Shown here: positions 1-4,707 of the stretch, one piece after another
Layout: every line of letters begins with the position of its first letter
Position numbering within the stretch: the stretch's first letter is position 1
Virus record (IMG/VR): IMGVR_UViG_2695420523_000008
DNA from: a virus
Taxonomy: Duplodnaviria; Heunggongvirae; Uroviricota; Caudoviricetes
Direction: 5' to 3' (one strand)
Length of the DNA: 4,707 bases
The notes under the pieces: generated by a model
The model's database searches: none
What the model saw: only the letters and a program-made list of their open reading frames with translations
Told to the model about the DNA's origin: nothing
Translations under genes and position numbers: made by a program

Positions 1-60
1 CATGGTGCTGTCCTGTAAAGCAATGCGCCTGCGTTCCTCAAACTATGGCGCTGATATTGG

Positions 61-366
61 CTATTCATGCTCTTTGACCTTGCGTCGCTGGAGTTCTTCA
101 CGCGCGACGGTGACGAGTTGCCCGATCTCCTCGGCTGCTTTGATGCCGATTTGTTCGACCTTAGCCAGGGCATCCAGTGACGACACAAGGGGATTTTCTC
201 CGCTGCCTTCTGCTTGGCGGCGGGCTATTTCTCCGCGCATGGCGGTTACGATAAATCCGGCATTGCTTTCACCGTCCAGCTTAACGGATTCCATCCCTTG
301 CATAACATCTAGTGGGACTCTGACAGTTGTCAGTTGTGATTTTGCGTTTTTGTTAGCCGTTGCCAT
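61..366 (-). CDS. Putative ribbon-helix-helix (Arc/Mnt/CopG-like) transcriptional repressor, 101 aa
   Basis: ORF 61..366 on minus strand. AGGAG Shine-Dalgarno (complement of 375-379) lies 8 nt upstream of the ATG (complement of 364-366). The segment TTVRVPLDVMQGMESVKLDGESNAGFIVTAMRGEIARR fits the RHH pattern of beta-strand, helix, G-x-S-x-N turn, helix. It is transcribed divergently from the rightward operon and sits next to the palindromic operator-like sites. Family assignment is by motif pattern only. Confidence 0.6.
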   Translation of the reverse strand: MATANKNAKSQLTTVRVPLDVMQGMESVKLDGESNAGFIVTAMRGEIARRQAEGSGENPLVSSLDALAKVEQIGIKAAEEIGQLVTVAREELQRRKVKEHE

Positions 367-387
367 TTCTGAAACTCCTAATCATCG

Positions 388-465
388 GTGTGTTTCAGTA
401 TACACAAAAAAAGAAATACAAAAAGCCTTGACGTGTGTTTCATGCGCTCATAACATGAAACACAC
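388..465. promoter_or_regulatory. Operator-like sites: three copies of GTGTGTTTCA, including a perfect 12-bp inverted repeat
   Basis: GTGTGTTTCATG at 433-444 and its exact reverse complement CATGAAACACAC at 454-465, separated by a 9-bp spacer; a third copy of the half-site GTGTGTTTCA at 388-397, followed by the palindrome GTATAC at 398-403. The sites overlap the -35/-10 of the rightward promoter and the candidate -10 of the leftward promoter. Confidence 0.55.
428..456 (+). promoter_or_regulatory. Sigma70-like promoter for the rightward operon
   Basis: TTGACG at 428-433 (5/6 match to TTGACA), a 17-bp spacer, then TAACAT at 451-456 (4/6 match to TATAAT, with the conserved T1, A2 and T6 present). 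About 100 nt upstream of the first rightward start codon. Predicted from consensus only. Confidence 0.45.
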
Positions 466-493
466 CGAAAGGATTGTTGAAATACAAAGAGCA

Positions 494-527
494 ACGCCCC
501 GCAGTGCTGGGAACACATACGGGGCGT
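494..527 (+). other. Stem-loop in the leader of the rightward operon (8-bp GC-rich stem, 18-nt loop)
   Basis: ACGCCCCG at 494-501 pairs with CGGGGCGT at 520-527. No U-tract follows, so it is not a canonical intrinsic terminator. It lies between the predicted promoter and the first SD/ATG at 546-559. Confidence 0.3.
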
Positions 528-556
528 CTAACCAACAACGTAAACTAGGAGCCGTT

Positions 557-754
557 ATGGTTGCTGTAAATCATATACCACACCTTGTACACACACAAAC
601 GGCCTTTGTGTGGCGTTTTCTGGCACTGAGTGCCGGAGAATCTCAAATCATCCACGTAACCGCCTGGACGGAACGCGAAGCGCGTAGCCGTTGCCCGTCC
701 GGTTGTGTTGCTGTATTCGCTGCAAAAATCCGCCAGGGAGTGAGTCATGCTTAA
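557..754 (+). CDS. Hypothetical small protein, 65 aa (first gene of rightward operon)
   Basis: TAGGAG at 546-551, 5-nt spacer, ATG at 557. This is the in-frame 3' part of the long open frame 2..754, whose 5' part overlaps the better-supported minus-strand gene. Stop TAA at 752-754 overlaps the next start by 8 nt. A resemblance to Icd-like small proteins of P4-type elements is only a vague recollection and is unverified. Confidence 0.4.
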   Translation: MVAVNHIPHLVHTQTAFVWRFLALSAGESQIIHVTAWTEREARSRCPSGCVAVFAAKIRQGVSHA

Positions 755-932
755 AACCTTCCGTGTATTTGCCCGAGCTGTTAACCCAATAGGCCACACA
801 ATTGGTATCGCTCAGAATGTGAAGGCTGTTAATGTTCAGACGGCTATTGCTGCGGTGAGAAGCGAATCATCAGAATATGGCTTATCACAAGTCATTATTT
901 CAGCAGTGTATGAATTAAAAGAGGTGCATTAA
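747..932 (+). CDS. Hypothetical small protein, 61 aa
   Basis: ORF track 747..932. GGGAG at 736-740 precedes ATG 747 by 6 nt. Its stop TAA at 930-932 overlaps the next ATG at 932 (TAATG), indicating translational coupling. Confidence 0.5.
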   Translation: MLKTFRVFARAVNPIGHTIGIAQNVKAVNVQTAIAAVRSESSEYGLSQVIISAVYELKEVH

Positions 933-1123
933 TGCAGGAAATTACATTACACGAAGCCGCTGAACGTGCGCACCAGACAGAAATTATTTGCCGCCTTCTT
1001 GAGGTATACCCGAACAAAATTACAGATGCTGATATATCCGCACTGGCGAGCCTACTGGCGCGTCTTTCGGGAAGTGTCGCTAGTTTTTTGATTGAGGAAG
1101 AAAGTAAGCTGGTGGGGGATTAA
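932..1123 (+). CDS. Hypothetical small protein, 63 aa
   Basis: ORF track 932..1123. GAGGTG at 921-926 with a 5-nt spacer to ATG 932. Its stop TAA at 1121-1123 is immediately followed by the next ATG at 1124. Confidence 0.5.
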   Translation: MQEITLHEAAERAHQTEIICRLLEVYPNKITDADISALASLLARLSGSVASFLIEEESKLVGD

Positions 1124-1345
1124 ATGAATACAGAACGGGAAGTCTTTTTTAAATTGTTAGCATGTGCAGAAAGTTCATTAACTTTAAATAATTCAGCAAA
1201 AGCAATATTAAATATGTGGCTTGATTGCATAAATGACAATGAAGATGCAAATATTGCTTATGGCCTGTTGTCACTTATTGATGAATCAGCAGAAAAACTC
1301 AATGACGCAATAAATAGTGCCCTGCTATCAAATAAGTCGAGTTAA
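1124..1345 (+). CDS. Hypothetical small protein, 73 aa, encoded by a markedly AT-rich segment
   Basis: ORF track 1124..1345. G-rich SD-like GGTGGGGGA at 1111-1119 just upstream. The first 60 nt contain 19 G+C, roughly one-third GC, against about half in flanking genes. Protein is rich in N, L, S, D, E, A. Confidence 0.5.
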   Translation: MNTEREVFFKLLACAESSLTLNNSAKAILNMWLDCINDNEDANIAYGLLSLIDESAEKLNDAINSALLSNKSS

Positions 1346-1362
1346 GTCGAGGAATAAATAAT

Positions 1363-1662
1363 ATGGAAATGAAAAATTCTGGCTTTATTGCCAGCGGCCC
1401 CGCTCGACCTGAATTTATGAACGACGATATTTACCGCGATAAATACGGCGGCACGGTAACGATTAAAGGCGTGGCAGAACGGCGCATCACTTACCGCCGT
1501 GAGGGGTATAGCTATGACTGCGTGATGCCTGTTTATCAGTTCCGGCGTGATTTTTCCCTGGTATATGCCGCACCCCGCAGTAAGCCCATCAGCAGGGAAA
1601 AAGCGTGGGGAAATATCCAGAAAATGAAAACCATGATTAACGGATTCAGAGGTAAAAAATGA
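1363..1662 (+). CDS. Hypothetical protein, 99 aa, translationally coupled to the replication gene
   Basis: ORF track 1363..1662. AGGA at 1350-1353 about 9 nt upstream of ATG 1363. Its stop TGA at 1660-1662 overlaps ATG 1659 of the next gene (ATGA). The antisense ORF 1342..1692 is rejected in its favour. Confidence 0.55.
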   Translation: MEMKNSGFIASGPARPEFMNDDIYRDKYGGTVTIKGVAERRITYRREGYSYDCVMPVYQFRRDFSLVYAAPRSKPISREKAWGNIQKMKTMINGFRGKK

Positions 1663-3413
1663 AACTGGCACCGAACGTAAAACAGCAGTCACGCGGCATA
1701 AAACACAAAGGAACAGAAGTCATTATTTTTGCGGGTAGTGATGCCTGGGCACACGCGAAACAATGGCAGGAACATGATGCGCGTATGGCCGGAGATAATG
1801 AGCCTCCTGTGTGGCTTGGGGAGCAGCAGCTATCCGAACTGGATAATCTGCAAATTGTGCCGGAAGGCCGAAAATCAGCACGCATATACAGGGCCGGATA
1901 TCTTGCGCCTGTAATGATAAAGGCGATTGGTCAGAAGCTGGCGGCAGCAGGCGTACAGGATGCAAATTTTTATCCTGAGGGTATGCACGGCCAGGAGGTG
2001 CAGAACTGGCGCGAATATCTGGCCCGTGAACGCCAGAATCTTTCTGATGGTCTGGTCATTGAGCTTCCGGTAAAGCAAAAGGCGCAACTTTCGCAGATGG
2101 CGGACAGTGAGCGCGTGCAGTTGCTTGCCGATCGCTTTGATGGCGTTTGCGTACATCCTGAAAGTGAAATCGTTCACGTATGGCGCGGCGGGGTATGGTG
2201 TCCGGTCAGCACAATGGAACTTAGCCGCGAAATGGTGGCGATCTATTCAGAGCACAGGGCCACTTTCAGCAAGCGCGTAATCAATAACGCCGTGGAAGCG
2301 TTAAAAGTTATTGCCGAACCAATGGGCGAGCCGTCTGGCGATTTGCTGCCGTTCGCCAATGGTGCGCTTGACCTGAAAACGGGGGAATTTTCCCCGCACA
2401 CGCCGGAGAACTGGATCACCACGCACAACGGCATTGAGTACACGCCACCAGCACCAGGGGAGAACATCCGCGATAACGCGCCAAACTTTCATAAATGGCT
2501 TGAGCACGCAGCCGGAAAAGACCCGCGCAAGATGATGCGTATATGTGCCGCGCTGTACATGATTATGGCGAACCGGTACGACTGGCAGATGTTTATTGAG
2601 GCCACCGGAGACGGCGGGAGCGGTAAAAGTACATTCACACACATAGCCAGCCTTCTGGCAGGGAAACAGAACACGGTAAGCGCTGAAATGACATCGCTTG
2701 ATGATGCTGGTGGACGTGCGCAGGTTGTCGGGAGTCGTCTTATCGTCCTGGCTGACCAGCCGAAATATACAGGCGAAGGAACGGGCATCAAGAAAATCAC
2801 AGGCGGCGACCCCGTGGAAATTAACCCGAAATATGAAAAGCGTTTCACGGCGGTAATCAGGGCGGTGGTGCTGGCGACCAACAACAACCCGATGATATTC
2901 ACCGAACGGGCCGGAGGTGTGGCACGTCGTCGCGTGATTTTCCGTTTCGACAATATCGTCAGTGAGGCCGAAAAAGACAGGGAGCTACCGGAAAAGATTG
3001 CGGCTGAAATCCCCGTTATTATCCGCCGATTGCTGGCGAACTTTACCGACCCTGAGAAGGCACGGGCTTTACTACTGGAACAGCGTGACGGTGATGAAGC
3101 ACTGGCAATAAAGCAACAGACGGATCCGGTTATTGAGTTTTGCCAGTTCCTGAATTTTCTAGAGGAAGCGCGCGGCCTGATGATGGGTGGCGGTGGTGAT
3201 TCAGTGAAGTACACGACCAGGAACAGCCTTTACCGCGTCTATCTGGCGTTTATGGCATACGCGGGCAGGAGCAAACCGCTAAACGTGGCTGAGTTCAGCA
3301 AGGCCATGAAGCCAGCGGCGAAAGTTTACGGGCATGAATATATTACGCGAAAAGTTAAGGGAGTAACGCAGACCAACGCAATTACAACAGACGATTGCGA
3401 CGCGTTTTTATAA
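1659..3413 (+). CDS. Replication initiator with SF3-helicase core (P4 alpha C-terminal / D5-like family), 584 aa
   Basis: Long ORF 1659..3413. Walker A GDGGSGKST at residues 317-325 (nt 2607-2633); Walker B-like LIVLAD at residues 361-366; motif C VVLATNNN at residues 403-410. The roughly 40-residue spacing A to B to C is typical of SF3 helicases. AGAGGT SD lies about 6 nt upstream of the ATG. The N-terminal ~300 aa has no motif I can confidently assign to a primase class. Confidence 0.88.
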   Translation: MKLAPNVKQQSRGIKHKGTEVIIFAGSDAWAHAKQWQEHDARMAGDNEPPVWLGEQQLSELDNLQIVPEGRKSARIYRAGYLAPVMIKAIGQKLAAAGVQDANFYPEGMHGQEVQNWREYLARERQNLSDGLVIELPVKQKAQLSQMADSERVQLLADRFDGVCVHPESEIVHVWRGGVWCPVSTMELSREMVAIYSEHRATFSKRVINNAVEALKVIAEPMGEPSGDLLPFANGALDLKTGEFSPHTPENWITTHNGIEYTPPAPGENIRDNAPNFHKWLEHAAGKDPRKMMRICAALYMIMANRYDWQMFIEATGDGGSGKSTFTHIASLLAGKQNTVSAEMTSLDDAGGRAQVVGSRLIVLADQPKYTGEGTGIKKITGGDPVEINPKYEKRFTAVIRAVVLATNNNPMIFTERAGGVARRRVIFRFDNIVSEAEKDRELPEKIAAEIPVIIRRLLANFTDPEKARALLLEQRDGDEALAIKQQTDPVIEFCQFLNFLEEARGLMMGGGGDSVKYTTRNSLYRVYLAFMAYAGRSKPLNVAEFSKAMKPAAKVYGHEYITRKVKGVTQTNAITTDDCDAFL

Positions 3414-3426
3414 TTTTTTGTAAAAG

Positions 3427-3650
3427 CCATCTACCCCATCTACCTGAACGAAATAAACGCATATTATTCAACATGATAAGTGGGTATAGGGCTAGGTAGA
3501 AGGCTAATAAAAGCTCTCTACCTCTTCTACCTGATTTTATCAGTTTCAGGTAGCAGGGTAGACGGCAGGTAGAGGAGTCAAAAAAGCTATCTACCCGCTG
3601 AAAGCCGCGCCATTACTGACATGATGAGCATTCGGGTAGATGGGTAGAGG
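3427..3650. repeat. Iteron array; candidate origin of replication for the element
   Basis: GGTAG on the top strand at 3495, 3549, 3557, 3568, 3635 and 3643, and CTACC at 3431, 3440, 3518, 3527 and 3591: 11 copies in about 220 bp, where about 0.4 would be expected by chance for one 5-mer on either strand. A perfect tandem 9-mer CCATCTACC x2 at 3427-3444 is mirrored by the inverted pair GGGTAGATGGGTAGAGG at 3634-3650. AT-rich stretches at 3446-3490 and 3504-3513 lie between repeat clusters. Located directly 3' of the helicase gene. Confidence 0.6.
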
Positions 3651-3698
3651 GGGGGAGGCACAACTAAAAACTTTTTAAACGAGGGGGGGTGAAAATAA

Positions 3699-4013
3699 AT
3701 GCGCATACATAAAAATCACTTAACAAACATGCCAGCCGAAAACATGAATCAGGGGCGACAAATGACCAAAATTCGCAGAGACAGAACACAGGCAAAATAT
3801 AAAGCGTTAGACATGACAGAGCTTTCCTTAAAGGTGGCAATCAAAGCGATAGACCACCACACACGGGCAGGATACGCGAAGGAACATCCCGACCTGATAA
3901 GCGCATTCATGACCACAGCAGCGGCAAACTTTGCCACGCTGACAGAACGGGAGATTGCCGAAGCGGAACAGGTGACAACCATCAATGTTAAAACCGGAGA
4001 GCAGACAGCATGA
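3699..4013 (+). CDS. Hypothetical protein, 104 aa (alternative starts possible at 3729, 3744 or 3762)
   Basis: ORF track 3699..4013. A G7 tract at 3683-3689 sits 9-16 nt upstream of ATG 3699 as a possible SD; the internal ATG at 3762 has its own AGGGG SD. Its stop TGA at 4011-4013 overlaps ATG 4010 of the SSB-like gene (ATGA). No recognisable motif. Confidence 0.5.
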   Translation: MRIHKNHLTNMPAENMNQGRQMTKIRRDRTQAKYKALDMTELSLKVAIKAIDHHTRAGYAKEHPDLISAFMTTAAANFATLTEREIAEAEQVTTINVKTGEQTA

Positions 4014-4432
4014 CAGCACAGATAGCGGCTTACGGGCGGCTGGTGGCTGACCCGCAGTTAAAGACCACCAGCAAAGGGACACAAATGGCGATGGCGAGTA
4101 TGGCGGTTCCCCTGCCGTGCAGCCAGGCAGATGACGGAACGGCGACGATGTGGTTATACGTCCTGGCGTTTGGCAGACAGGCCGACGCACTGGCAAAACA
4201 CCACAAAGGCGAACTGGTGAGCGTGGCGGGTAACATGCAGGTAAGCCAGTGGACAGGCCAGAACGGCGAAACGCGGCGGGGCTGGCAGGTTATCGCAGAC
4301 AGCGTAATCAGTGCGCGAACGGCGCGACCGGGCGGCAAAAAAGGCCAGCAGGGGCAGGCCACTGACGCACTGAACAGGGCAAAACAACAGTCGGGGAATG
4401 ATGATCCGTACGGCGATAATATACCGTTTTAA
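4010..4432 (+). CDS. ssb: Single-stranded DNA-binding protein (SSB) paralogue, 140 aa, with host-like C-terminal tip
   Basis: The N-terminal ~110 aa aligns by eye with the OB-fold core of E. coli SSB: GRLVADPQL against GNLGQDPEV, and WLYVLAFGRQADALAKHHKGELVSVAGNMQVSQWTGQNGETRRGWQVIADSV against [52 protein letters not shown]. A short Gly/Gln-rich linker follows, and the C-terminus DDPYGDNIPF matches the acidic D-I-P-F tip of bacterial SSB. Confidence 0.8.
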   Translation: MTAQIAAYGRLVADPQLKTTSKGTQMAMASMAVPLPCSQADDGTATMWLYVLAFGRQADALAKHHKGELVSVAGNMQVSQWTGQNGETRRGWQVIADSVISARTARPGGKKGQQGQATDALNRAKQQSGNDDPYGDNIPF

Positions 4433-4449
4433 ATTCTGCAAACAAAAAG

Positions 4450-4478
4450 ATGCCGGAAAAAAATAGATTTTCCGGCAT
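4450..4478 (-). terminator. Hairpin with perfect 11-bp stem; intrinsic terminator on the minus strand, possibly bidirectional
   Basis: ATGCCGGAAAA at 4450-4460 pairs with TTTTCCGGCAT at 4468-4478 around a 7-nt loop. On the minus strand the hairpin is followed by a U-rich tract (complement of 4438-4449, CUUUUUGUUUG). On the plus strand it is preceded by an A-tract but lacks a downstream U-tract, so it is at best a weak terminator for ssb. Confidence 0.5.
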
Positions 4479-4592
4479 GCTACATAAATCCCGACCAAAG
4501 GAAGTAAATACATTAACACGAATTATCAGCACTGAAGTTGTTACGGCATATTTTATACAGCATTGCACTTGGTTGCATGTATTCGCATAGCA

Positions 4593-4707
4593 GGTAATGA
4601 CTCCAACTTATTGATAGTGTTTTATGTTCAGATAATGCCCGATGACTTTGTCATGCAGCTCCACCGATTTTGAGAACGACAGCGACTTCCGTCCCAGCCG
4701 TGCCAGG
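4593..4707 (-). mobile_element. IS1 insertion sequence, terminal 115 bp including the right inverted repeat; continues beyond the window
   Basis: GGTAATGACTCCAACTTATTGATAGTG from 4593 matches the IS1 terminal inverted repeat as I recall it, and the following sequence through 4707 matches the IS1 insB-proximal end. Recognised from memory of the IS1 sequence, not searched. Confidence 0.88.
4608..4707 (-). CDS. insB: IS1 transposase InsB, 3' end (partial; start lies outside the window)
   Basis: Minus-strand translation of 4706..4608 gives [32 protein letters not shown] followed by a stop (TAA, complement of 4608-4610), 15 nt inside the IS1 end. Absent from the ORF track because no start codon lies within the window. 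Confidence 0.8.

What the first reader, a model, noticed from the sequence alone, without database searches (positions are those of the whole stretch)
1..4592. Overall layout matches a satellite or PICI-like regulation-replication core with an unusual regulator set
The order is leftward repressor, divergent switch, small regulators, initiator helicase, iteron origin immediately 3', then accessory replication genes. This mirrors the SaPI/PICI core (stl, str and small ORFs, pri-rep, ori), while the host signature (IS1, enterobacterial-style SDs) is Gram-negative. The combination of an RHH repressor, unrecognised small ORFs, a GGTAG iteron origin and an SSB paralogue is not one I can match to a named element.
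Basis: inference. Interest (0 to 1): 0.55.

Follow-up and report, generated by a model that had tools for sequence, protein, structure and literature searches.

The report
Replication core of a helper-embedded PICI satellite

Summary
Bases 1-4592 are about 99.8% identical to a 10,898-bp island in 55 of 5,426 complete E. coli genomes.

In all five genomes inspected, the island splits the portal gene of a lambdoid prophage. It has its own integrase and AlpA gene and an 8-bp AAGGCGAT att repeat. Deleting it in silico restores an intact portal ORF.

One of these copies (CP011416.1:3698288-3709185) is listed by Tommasini, Mageeney and Williams (2023) as HE-PICI Eco2613.11.B_Phage_portal_2_241.

The window is also syntenic, gene for gene, with the prototype Gram-negative PICI, EcCICFT073. 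Its 584-aa Pri-Rep is 97.6% identical, and the iteron origin aligns. That paper reports pri-rep-ori-dependent replication for EcCICFT073.

So the PICI-like reading is correct. The regulator set is the standard E. coli PICI set, not an unusual one.

One point appears to be undescribed. The leftward YlcI/YnfO gene has a ribbon-helix-helix-like fold. Its three 10-mer sites around the rightward promoter differ between PICI alleles. This suggests a repressor layer that the published AlpA-activator model does not include.

Novelty: already known. Interest: low.

The parts
1..3 (-). Start codon (CAT, read as ATG on the minus strand) of an unannotated 59-aa leftward ORF that runs off the window. It is the second gene of the leftward unit, downstream of the YlcI-like gene.
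   Evidence: ORF at L001 19824-20003(-). It matches phrog_21027 at E 5e-15, as does the annotated 57-aa CDS at the same position in EcCICFT073.
61..366 (-). YlcI/YnfO-family protein, 101 aa. It has an N-terminal ribbon-helix-helix-like domain and a long C-terminal helix. It is a candidate repressor of the rightward promoter.
388..465 (+). Rightward promoter-like site (-35 TTGACG at 428, -10 TAACAT ending at 456), bracketed by three GTGTGTTTCA sites at 388-397 (+), 433-442 (+) and 456-465 (-). These are putative operators.
   Evidence: In four other PICI alleles the same positions carry a different thrice-repeated 10-mer, while the -35 element is conserved.
494..527 (+). Conserved leader stem-loop (GCCCCGC...GCGGGGC) followed by the conserved tail UCUAACCA(A/C)CAACG, upstream of the Icd-like gene. 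Function unknown.
   Evidence: RNAalifold on six PICI alleles predicted 14 pairs overall; 11 of them form this stem-loop. Two stem pairs (alignment columns 45-76 and 54-66) keep pairing after changes on both sides. There is no U-tract, so it is not an intrinsic terminator. The single-sequence folding z-score is only -1.2.
557..754 (+). Icd-like small protein, 65 aa. It is a possible analogue of P4 Kil. Its frame stays open upstream to window base 2 and beyond.
   Evidence: NF033153 E 1.2e-17. It matches phrog_29966 at profile positions 127-186 of 188. The upstream open frame is shown.
747..1345 (+). Three small overlapping or abutting ORFs (747-932, 932-1123, 1124-1345) of unknown function.
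   Evidence: phrog_3672, phrog_1478 and phrog_2196, all of unknown function. Only the middle ORF has a detectable homologue in EcCICFT073, at 55% identity.
1363..1662 (+). DUF4222 protein, 99 aa. Its end overlaps the Pri-Rep start by 4 nt, so the two genes are probably translationally coupled.
   Evidence: PF13973 E 4.9e-23. It is 72% identical to the EcCICFT073 protein at the same position.
1659..3413 (+). Pri-Rep, 584 aa: a superfamily-3 helicase-type replication initiator with a C-terminal domain like the P4 alpha origin-binding domain.
   Evidence: D5_N, DUF5906, Pox_D5 and TIGR01613. PDB sequence matches: 7ola 'DNA primase' over residues 195-432 (E 4e-15) and 1ka8 'putative P4-specific DNA primase' over 488-576 (E 8e-6). 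97.6% identical to EcCICFT073 Pri-Rep. For that protein, PMC6092414 reports plasmid replication that depends on rep, with colony yield significantly reduced when ori is deleted.
3430..3648 (.). Origin of replication. TCTACC/GGTAGA iterons lie in two opposed sets around AT-rich DNA.
   Evidence: 10 exact GGTAGA against about 1 expected. The region aligns with the EcCICFT073 ori, and the iterons are the conserved columns. GC is 0.405-0.415 there. PMC6092414 describes the same organisation for E. coli PICIs.
3761..4013 (+). Small ORF of unknown function. RefSeq annotates 83 aa; the longest frame starts at 3699. Its end overlaps the SSB start.
   Evidence: phrog_1231 E 1e-48. Annotated at L001 23761-24012. 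72% identical to the EcCICFT073 homologue.
4010..4432 (+). Single-stranded DNA-binding protein, 140 aa. Its C-terminal tail ends in ...DDPYGDNIPF.
   Evidence: PF00436 E 1.7e-15 and TIGR00621. 69% identical to the EcCICFT073 SSB.
4450..4478 (.). GC-rich hairpin after the SSB gene, at the end of the replication zone.
   Evidence: Terminator-like site with 11 pairs. The scan calls it on the minus strand, where the T-run lies.
4593..4707 (.). End of an IS1 copy inserted 57 bp upstream of the satellite's capsid gene. It is not part of the satellite and is specific to this copy.
   Evidence: 100% identical to IS1. Uninterrupted copies continue into the capsid gene at L001 24649. This junction was not found in any complete E. 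coli genome or GTDB species representative.

Best explanation
The window is the distal part of the 'Bro' zone plus the whole 'Replication' zone of a Gram-negative phage-inducible chromosomal island (PICI). It belongs to the helper-embedded class (HE-PICI), site group B:Phage_portal_2:241.

The intact island is 10,898 bp. Its gene order is int, alpA, a Bro-N gene, [the window], a lambda-E-like capsid gene, a lambda-D-like decoration gene, a second AlpA-family HTH gene, a lambda-type cos site, a Nu1-like TerS gene and one hypothetical ORF. It is integrated by its own tyrosine integrase at an 8-bp core (AAGGCGAT) at codon 275 of the portal gene of lambdoid prophages, in the same orientation as the late operon.

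Likely mechanism (inferred unless marked as shown):
1. While integrated, the island keeps the helper's portal gene split.
2. On helper induction, alpA is switched on. This has been shown for the relatives EcCICFT073 and EcCIMP1.
3. The island excises, which restores the portal gene.
4. The rightward operon in the window is expressed from the promoter at 428-456.
5. Pri-Rep binds the GGTAGA iterons through its P4-alpha-like C-terminal domain, melts the AT-rich spacer, loads as a superfamily-3 helicase and replicates the circle, helped by the island's own SSB. Pri-Rep/ori-dependent replication has been shown for the 97.6%-identical EcCICFT073 protein.
6. Concatemers are packaged at the island's cos site by the helper terminase, redirected by the island's Nu1-like TerS.

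The leftward RHH-like YlcI/YnfO protein probably represses the rightward promoter through the three GTGTGTTTCA sites. This step is inferred and is not part of the published model.
For: Identity
- Bases 1-4592 are 99.8-99.9% identical to 55 chromosomal copies.
- One copy, NZ_CP011416.1 3700901-3705492, lies inside CP011416.1:3698288-3709185. Supplementary File 1 of PMC10111431 lists that interval as HE-PICI Eco2613.11.B_Phage_portal_2_241, identity block 'aaggcgat'.

Context
- In 5 of 5 genomes inspected (L001, L002, L005-L007) the island splits a lambdoid portal gene.
- Sixty-four genomes carry the portal/left-end junction.
- Removing the 10,898 bp between the AAGGCGAT repeats restores a 533-aa portal ORF.
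- The doubled TGTGTATTGC motif reported for HE-PICI attP arms is present at both ends.

Family
- Integrase, Phage_AlpA, Bro-N, Phage_cap_E, HDPD and Phage_Nu1 domains are present.
- The window is syntenic gene for gene with EcCICFT073. Pri-Rep is 97.6% identical and the ori aligns with its iterons conserved.
- The island carries lambda cosN (GGGCGGCGACCT) with a divergent downstream region.

Published function of close relatives
- PMC6092414 and PMC10111431.
Against: - The window's own flanks are not visible. The left edge stops before the Bro-N gene, alpA and int, and the right edge is an IS1. Residence in a portal gene is therefore inferred from near-identical copies, and this copy may be truncated or inactivated by IS1.
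- No induction, excision or transfer data exist for this site group. The only HE-PICI tested experimentally (11capE, inserted in the capsid gene) excised but gave no detectable particles.
- Pfam finds no primase catalytic domain in residues 1-150 of Pri-Rep, so how priming occurs is unknown.
Confidence: 0.93

Rival explanations
1. It is the early or replication region of the surrounding lambdoid prophage itself, that is, part of an ordinary full-length prophage.
For: The island lies physically inside a lambdoid prophage. It shares protein families with that prophage: YlcI/YnfO, DUF4222, E-like, D-like and Nu1-like proteins.
Against: - The prophage has its own cI/cro/cII, O/P replication genes and Q.
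- The island interrupts the portal ORF precisely and is bounded by an 8-bp repeat. It has its own integrase and AlpA gene, and removing it restores the portal gene.
- Its E, D and Nu1 homologues are only 36-42% identical to the helper's.
- The phage collection holds no match to bases 1-4592.
Confidence: 0.02
2. It is a P4-like satellite, dependent on a P2-type helper.
For: It has an AlpA/Vis-like regulator, an Icd/Kil-like small protein and a long open frame resembling the P4 eta/kil arrangement. Pri-Rep carries the P4-family primase C-terminal region and a 1ka8-like origin-binding domain.
Against: - The island has no annotated sid, psu or delta genes.
- No CI/C4/isrK RNA was found in the window or the whole island at E <= 1.
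- Its late genes and cos site are lambda-type.
- The iterons are GGTAGA.
- PMC6092414 argues that E. coli PICIs and P4 are separate lineages.
Confidence: 0.03
3. It is a capsid-forming PICI (cf-PICI) or a plasmid or phage-plasmid replicon.
For: The island encodes a capsid protein, a decoration protein and a TerS. A 32.5-kb record in the plasmid collection (CP088587.1) holds a 91.8%-identical DUF4222/Pri-Rep/ori segment.
Against: - The island has no portal, protease, TerL or head-tail connector genes, which define cf-PICIs (definition quoted).
- 2,472 of 2,474 places matching the replication module are chromosomal.
- No plasmid record covers 80% or more of the window.
Confidence: 0.02

Closest known systems
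HE-PICI, site group B:Phage_portal_2:241 (Tommasini, Mageeney and Williams 2023, NAR Genom Bioinform, PMC10111431), for example Eco2613.11.B_Phage_portal_2_241
   Same: It is the same element. The window is 99.8% identical to the interior of a listed member. The AAGGCGAT identity block, the 10,898-bp length, the doubled TGTGTATTGC arm motif, the orientation matching the late operon, and the four-zone order (Integration, Bro, Replication, Late) all agree.
   Different: This copy has an IS1 inserted between the SSB and capsid genes. Its flanks were not available, so its own integration site is inferred.
EcCICFT073, the prototype Gram-negative (cos) PICI (Fillol-Salom et al. 2018, PMC6092414)
   Same: The gene order is the same from the YlcI/YnfO gene to the SSB gene. 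Pri-Rep is 97.6% identical, DUF4222 72%, SSB 69%. The ori is homologous with the same iteron. E-like capsid and D-like decoration genes lie downstream. The helpers are lambdoid.
   Different: - EcCICFT073 integrates at a chromosomal site between ycfD and phoQ, not in a prophage gene.
- Its YlcI-like protein is a 59-aa version, 38% identical, with a different operator-like repeat.
- It carries perC.
- RefSeq annotates no TerS gene in it, and the literature says it lacks terS. The island here encodes a Nu1-like TerS.
HE-PICI Eco567.11capE, the only HE-PICI studied experimentally (PMC10111431)
   Same: The class and lifestyle are the same. It is embedded in a late gene of a lambdoid prophage, and the doubled attP arm motif found here is the one that paper reports for every HE-PICI. 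It has int, alpA, primase and capsid genes.
   Different: It is inserted in the capsid gene E (site E:Phage_cap_E:80) rather than the portal gene B. It lacks terS.
Satellite phage P4
   Same: It is an integrative satellite with a Vis/AlpA-type regulator, a Kil/Icd-like peptide nested in a longer frame, a helicase-type initiator with a homologous C-terminal origin-binding domain, and the helper's cos site.
   Different: Its helper is P2-type. Immunity is RNA-based (CI RNA), and that RNA is absent here. It has sid, psu and delta genes and different iterons.
SaPIs and other Gram-positive PICIs (stl/str, pri-rep, ori)
   Same: It has a leftward regulator gene, a divergent promoter region, a rightward replication operon, and an iteron origin immediately 3' of the initiator gene.
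   Different: There is no homology between Stl and the YlcI-like protein. Published induction of E. coli PICIs works through the activator AlpA rather than by antagonising a repressor. Here int and alpA are transcribed rightward.

Membership tests
HE-PICI (Tommasini et al. 2023) | Integrated within, and disrupting, a late gene of a lambdoid helper prophage, co-oriented with it, with no replacement sequence in attP | tested here: met
   In 5 of 5 near-identical copies inspected, the portal gene is split into an 834-bp N-terminal part and a 783-bp C-terminal part, with the island genes in the same orientation. Sixty-four genomes carry the junction. Excision in silico restores a 533-aa ORF. This was not observable for the window's own copy.
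HE-PICI (Tommasini et al. 2023) | Doubled motif tgTGTATTGCantgTGTATTGCa in both attP arms at fixed spacing (81 and 132 bp from the centre) | tested here: met
   The motif lies at L001 17520-17542, and its start is 132 nt from the centre of the attL core. A second copy lies at 28186-28208, 77-99 nt from the centre of the attR core depending on the reference point. The paper's exact measuring convention is not known.
HE-PICI (Tommasini et al. 2023) | Integrase belongs to the HE-PICI clade, and the site group is coherent with the att core | tested here: inconclusive
   No phylogeny was built here. A near-identical copy is listed by the authors in group B_Phage_portal_2_241 with core 'aaggcgat', which is the repeat I found.
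Gram-negative PICI (Fillol-Salom et al. 2018; de Sousa et al. 2023) | Core set in order: integrase, AlpA-type regulator, primase-replicase, capsid-morphogenesis gene, TerS. Size about 8-15 kb. | tested here: met
   Pfam finds Phage_integrase, Phage_AlpA, D5_N/DUF5906, Phage_cap_E and Phage_Nu1 in that order. The island is 10,898 bp.
Gram-negative PICI (Fillol-Salom et al. 2018; de Sousa et al. 2023) | [quoted passage not shown] | tested here: met
   The region aligns with the EcCICFT073 ori.
Gram-negative PICI (Fillol-Salom et al. 2018; de Sousa et al. 2023) | No tail, holin or lysis genes; no portal, TerL or connector genes (this separates PICIs from prophages and cf-PICIs) | tested here: met
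   The annotation of intact copies lists none between the att repeats.
Gram-negative PICI (Fillol-Salom et al. 2018; de Sousa et al. 2023) | att site never occupied by prophages (chromosomal attC) | tested here: not met
   The att site lies inside a prophage gene. It is not one of the eight E. coli attC sites in Table S1 of PMC6092414. This is the feature that defines the HE-PICI subclass.
Gram-negative PICI (Fillol-Salom et al. 2018; de Sousa et al. 2023) | Helper-phage-dependent induction, excision, replication and high-frequency transfer | not testable with these tools
   Shown for EcCICFT073. Partly shown for HE-PICI 11capE, where excision was seen but no particles. There are no data for this site group.
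P4-like satellite | sid, psu and delta genes; CI immunity RNA (Rfam C4/isrK); P2-type helper | tested here: not met
   No Rfam match at E <= 1 in the window or the whole island. No such genes are annotated. The cos site and late genes are lambda-type.
Ribbon-helix-helix (Arc/MetJ/CopG) DNA-binding proteins (for ORF 61-366) | N-terminal strand-helix-helix of about 45 residues that dimerises to form a two-stranded sheet | tested here: inconclusive

The most novel reading that the evidence does not exclude
E. coli PICIs, including HE-PICIs and EcCICFT073, may have a repressor layer that has not been described.

- The leftward YlcI/YnfO-family RHH-like protein would bind three allele-specific 10-bp operators around the promoter of the Icd-like to Pri-Rep operon. 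It may be co-transcribed with a small phrog_21027 protein. This would set an 'immunity type' and keep replication off until AlpA, or read-through from the helper's late operon, overrides it.
- The Icd-like gene may be the C-terminal part of a long Eta-like reading frame. That frame is 268-367 codons long upstream of the Icd-like start in 4 of 6 alleles. It runs antisense through the repressor gene and starts at the end of alpA or the Bro gene, as eta/kil does in P4.

The published model says no master repressor is known for Gram-negative PICIs.
Probability: 0.4. Interest if true: 0.4.

Novelty: already known. Interest (0 to 1): 0.15.

Why it matters
The finding adds little. The element, its class and its unusual integration site in a helper phage's portal gene were published in 2023. 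Its replication module is nearly identical to the experimentally validated module of EcCICFT073.

The useful results are these:
- A raw-sequence reader recognised a satellite core correctly.
- The apparent contradiction of the region lying inside a prophage is resolved: the island is a discrete insertion.
- One testable gap was identified. This is the candidate RHH repressor with allele-specific operators, plus an Eta/Kil-like nested frame, at the switch of a very common family of E. coli satellites. Parts of the module are matched in 1,142 to 1,765 of 5,426 complete genomes. Regulation of this family is currently attributed only to the activator AlpA.

Tried and rejected
- **Phage collection.** Only the IS1 end matches, so the block is not part of any deposited phage genome.
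- **Plasmid collection.** No record covers 80% or more. The best hit is a 32.5-kb record with the DUF4222/Pri-Rep/ori segment at 91.8% identity. A plasmid backbone was rejected.
- **Rfam, window and whole island, E <= 1.** No match to any family, including C4 and isrK, which detect P4 CI/seqA-type RNAs in some PICIs. P4-type RNA immunity was rejected for this element.
- **PDB sequence searches with the YlcI-like protein and its profile.** No RHH protein was found. There was only a marginal match of residues 45-86 to the helix-hairpin-helix region of Hef (E 0.006), which I did not pursue.
- **Foldseek of the model against the PDB.** Nothing significant.
- The R-x-P register aligns, but the probabilities are only 7.5% and 1%.
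- **Homology of the long upstream open frame.** Only its C-terminal 60 residues (the Icd-like part) match any family.
- **Search for the source genome through the IS1 junction.** No complete E. coli genome or GTDB representative has it.
- **Literature searches.** 'PICI + DUF4222' and 'PICI + portal gene' found nothing. The HE-PICI paper was reached through a citation in de Sousa et al. 2023.


Full report
**Observation**

- A 101-aa ORF runs leftward at 61-366. It is a YlcI/YnfO-family protein (NF041551, E 1.6e-17; phrog_6522).
- The 190-bp gap at 367-556 holds one sigma-70-like site, TTGACG-17-TAACAT, at 428-456.
- Three exact copies of GTGTGTTTCA lie at 388, 433 (+) and 456 (-). About 0.39 copies are expected by chance.
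- Rightward come an Icd-like ORF (557-754, NF033153), three small ORFs of unknown function (747-1345) and a DUF4222 ORF (1363-1662).
- After a 4-nt overlap comes a 584-aa protein (1659-3413) with D5_N, DUF5906 and Pox_D5 domains and the P4-family primase C-terminal signature.
- Its residues 195-432 match PDB chain 7ola, deposited as 'DNA primase'. Residues 488-576 match 1ka8, deposited as 'putative P4-specific DNA primase'. From memory, 1ka8 is the origin-binding domain of P4 alpha.
- Directly 3' of that gene, 3430-3648 holds 10 exact GGTAGA. About 1 is expected in the whole window, and no shuffle out of 200 reached 10. They form two opposed sets in DNA of about 41% GC.
- A phrog_1231 ORF (3761-4013) and an SSB gene (4010-4432) follow.
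- 4593-4707 is an IS1 end.

The weak parts are the leftward promoter, for which there is no evidence, and the label 'regulators' for the small ORFs.

**Where it sits**

Bases 1-4592 are 99.8-99.9% identical to single chromosomal places in 55 of 5,426 complete E. coli genomes. No plasmid covers most of the window, and no phage record matches anything but IS1.

In strain Q5 (L001) the block lies in a 10.9-kb island that interrupts the portal gene of a lambdoid prophage. The island's gene order is:
- tyrosine integrase, AlpA and a Bro-N gene;
- the window;
- a lambda-E-like capsid gene and a lambda-D-like decoration gene;
- a second AlpA-family HTH gene and a Nu1-like TerS gene;
- one hypothetical ORF.

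The same arrangement is seen in four more genomes, in at least two different prophage backgrounds. Sixty-four genomes carry the portal/left-end junction.

The island is bounded by AAGGCGAT at L001 17384 and 28282. Removing the 10,898 bp between these repeats gives an uninterrupted 533-aa portal ORF.

Both arms carry the doubled motif TGTGTATTGCantgTGTATTGC.

The prophage has its own cI/cro/cII, O/P genes and Q. The island is therefore a separate integrated element, not the prophage's replication region.

**It is a published element**

De Sousa et al. [quoted passage not shown] That report is Tommasini, Mageeney and Williams 2023 (PMC10111431). It defines helper-embedded PICIs (HE-PICIs) and reports the following:
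- 491 islands at 14 sites in lambdoid late genes;
- a dedicated integrase clade;
- the doubled TGTATTGC motif in attP;
- a four-zone organisation (Integration, Bro, Replication, Late).

Their Supplementary File 1 lists 'Eco2613.11.B_Phage_portal_2_241, CP011416.1/3698288-3709185', identity block 'aaggcgat'. My hit H17 places the window at NZ_CP011416.1 3700901-3705492, inside that interval. The listed length, 10,898 bp, equals the one I measured.

The window is therefore the end of the Bro zone plus the Replication zone of an HE-PICI of site group B:Phage_portal_2:241.

**Relation to the prototype PICI**

EcCICFT073 (L004) has the same order: YlcI/YnfO(-), Icd-like, small ORFs, DUF4222, a 584-aa primase-family protein, a hypothetical ORF, SSB, then capsid and decoration genes.

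| Protein | Identity to EcCICFT073 |
|---|---|
| Pri-Rep | 97.6% |
| DUF4222 | 72% |
| phrog_1231 ORF | 72% |
| SSB | 69% |
| Icd-like | 46% |
| YlcI-like | 38% |

The ori regions align, and the TCTACC/GGTAGA iterons are the conserved columns.

Fillol-Salom et al. 2018 (PMC6092414) report the following for EcCICFT073:
- The rep-ori segment maintains a temperature-sensitive plasmid. The rep mutant gave no colonies, and deleting ori significantly reduced colony numbers.
- E. coli PICI origins have two iteron sets flanking an AT-rich region.
- AlpA is an activator, induced by helper phages, whose overexpression causes excision and runaway replication.
- Whether a global repressor exists is 'unclear'.

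The modules are very common. Parts of the replication block are matched in 1,765 genomes and parts of the left block in 1,142. In some elements the initiator is replaced by a RepA-family or DUF927 protein. The regulator set is thus the ordinary one for this family.

**Mechanism**

Shown for close relatives:
- AlpA-dependent induction;
- replication that depends on Pri-Rep and ori;
- excision of an HE-PICI after its composite prophage has excised and replicated.

Read directly from the sequence:
- The island carries lambda cosN (GGGCGGCGACCT) with the flanking cosQ-side sequence 88% identical to the helper's. The downstream region is divergent, directly upstream of a Nu1 homologue.
- That homologue matches Pfam Phage_Nu1 only over its C-terminal half (residues 66-148 against profile positions 80-162). 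It is 36% identical to the helper's TerS overall.

Inferred:
- The island's TerS redirects the helper terminase to the island's cos site.
- The E-like and D-like proteins, 42% and 38% identical to the helper's, alter capsid assembly.
- Integration in the portal gene blocks helper head assembly until the island excises.

**The regulator question**

An AlphaFold2 model of the YlcI-like protein (30-sequence alignment, mean pLDDT 83) has an extended N-terminal segment, two helices (19-28 and 35-55) and a long C-terminal helix.

- Foldseek and the sequence searches found no RHH protein.
- I rate the RHH fold as likely but not proven.

Five PICI alleles each carry their own thrice-repeated 10-mer at equivalent positions around a conserved -35 element:

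| Allele | Repeated motif |
|---|---|
| window | GTGTGTTTCA |
| EcCICFT073 | GTGGGCCACA |
| L008 | GTGCGATTCA |
| L009 | GGTATTCAC |
| L010 | TGTGCAYACA |

The two alleles with the same predicted strand sequence (KSQQLNARFPH) have the most similar motifs. This pattern fits a repressor-operator pair that sets specificity. The sample is small, and nothing has been tested biochemically.

**Verdict**

The satellite/PICI interpretation is right. The claims that the regulator set is unusual and that the element cannot be named are wrong. The element is already known, so overall interest is low. The candidate repressor layer and the Eta/Kil-like nested frame are modest leads that can be tested.

Noticed in passing
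window 2-754 (+); L001 19681-20754; also L004, L010, L011: The reading frame of the Icd-like gene stays open upstream of its ATG for 292 codons in this island, 367 in EcCICFT073, and 343 and 268 in two other PICIs. It reaches back to the end of alpA or the Bro gene and runs antisense through the YlcI-like gene. The other two plus-strand frames have 16 stops each over the same stretch. In two alleles the frame is closed after 23-32 codons. This resembles the nested eta/kil arrangement of P4. The upstream part has no family homology.
   Followed up: partly
window 1-3 (-); L001 19824-20003 (-): An unannotated 59-aa ORF lies downstream of the YlcI-like gene on the same strand (phrog_21027). It is homologous to an annotated 57-aa CDS at the same place in EcCICFT073. 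Its start codon is the first three bases of the window.
   Followed up: partly
window 494-527 plus tail to about 545: A leader stem-loop and the following UCUAACCA(A/C)CAACG are more conserved among six PICI alleles than the neighbouring coding DNA. Two stem pairs keep pairing after changes on both sides. There is no U-tract and no Rfam match. Function unknown.
   Followed up: partly
L001 26461-26537 against L001 13699-13775: The island carries lambda cosN (GGGCGGCGACCT) and its flanks at 88% identity to the helper's cos. The sequence diverges just downstream, where lambda has cosB, in front of the island's own Nu1-like TerS. This suggests satellite-specific packaging recognition.
   Followed up: partly
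L001 27480-27870: Downstream of the last island ORF there are three 54-bp-spaced copies of a 38-nt unit, each ending in a small hairpin. There is also a 24-nt direct repeat (GATAACGCAAAATTGCGCTGGCTG) 186 bp apart. Function unknown.
   Followed up: no
L005-L007 positions 295-528 (-), upstream of nohD/cos of the helper prophages: The helper prophages encode their own YlcI/YnfO-family protein (ylcI) just upstream of their cos and terminase region. Satellite and helper therefore share this small protein family.
   Followed up: no
plasmid collection hit H26, CP088587.1 17497-19846: A 32.5-kb record deposited as an E. coli plasmid carries the DUF4222/Pri-Rep/ori segment at 91.8% identity. It might be an excised or mis-binned satellite composite.
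   Followed up: no
L002 (E. coli O121 strain 201805972), 15001-25100: This copy of the same island carries three IS1 insertions: in the integrase region, at the DUF4222/Pri-Rep junction, and in the capsid gene. The window's copy has yet another IS1 site at 4593. IS1 has hit this island repeatedly.
   Followed up: partly
window 61-366 (-), residues 45-86 of the protein: The profile of the YlcI-like family gives a marginal match (E 0.006) to the helix-hairpin-helix region of the archaeal Hef nuclease (1x2i), around the conserved VE.IG.KAAEEI segment.
   Followed up: no
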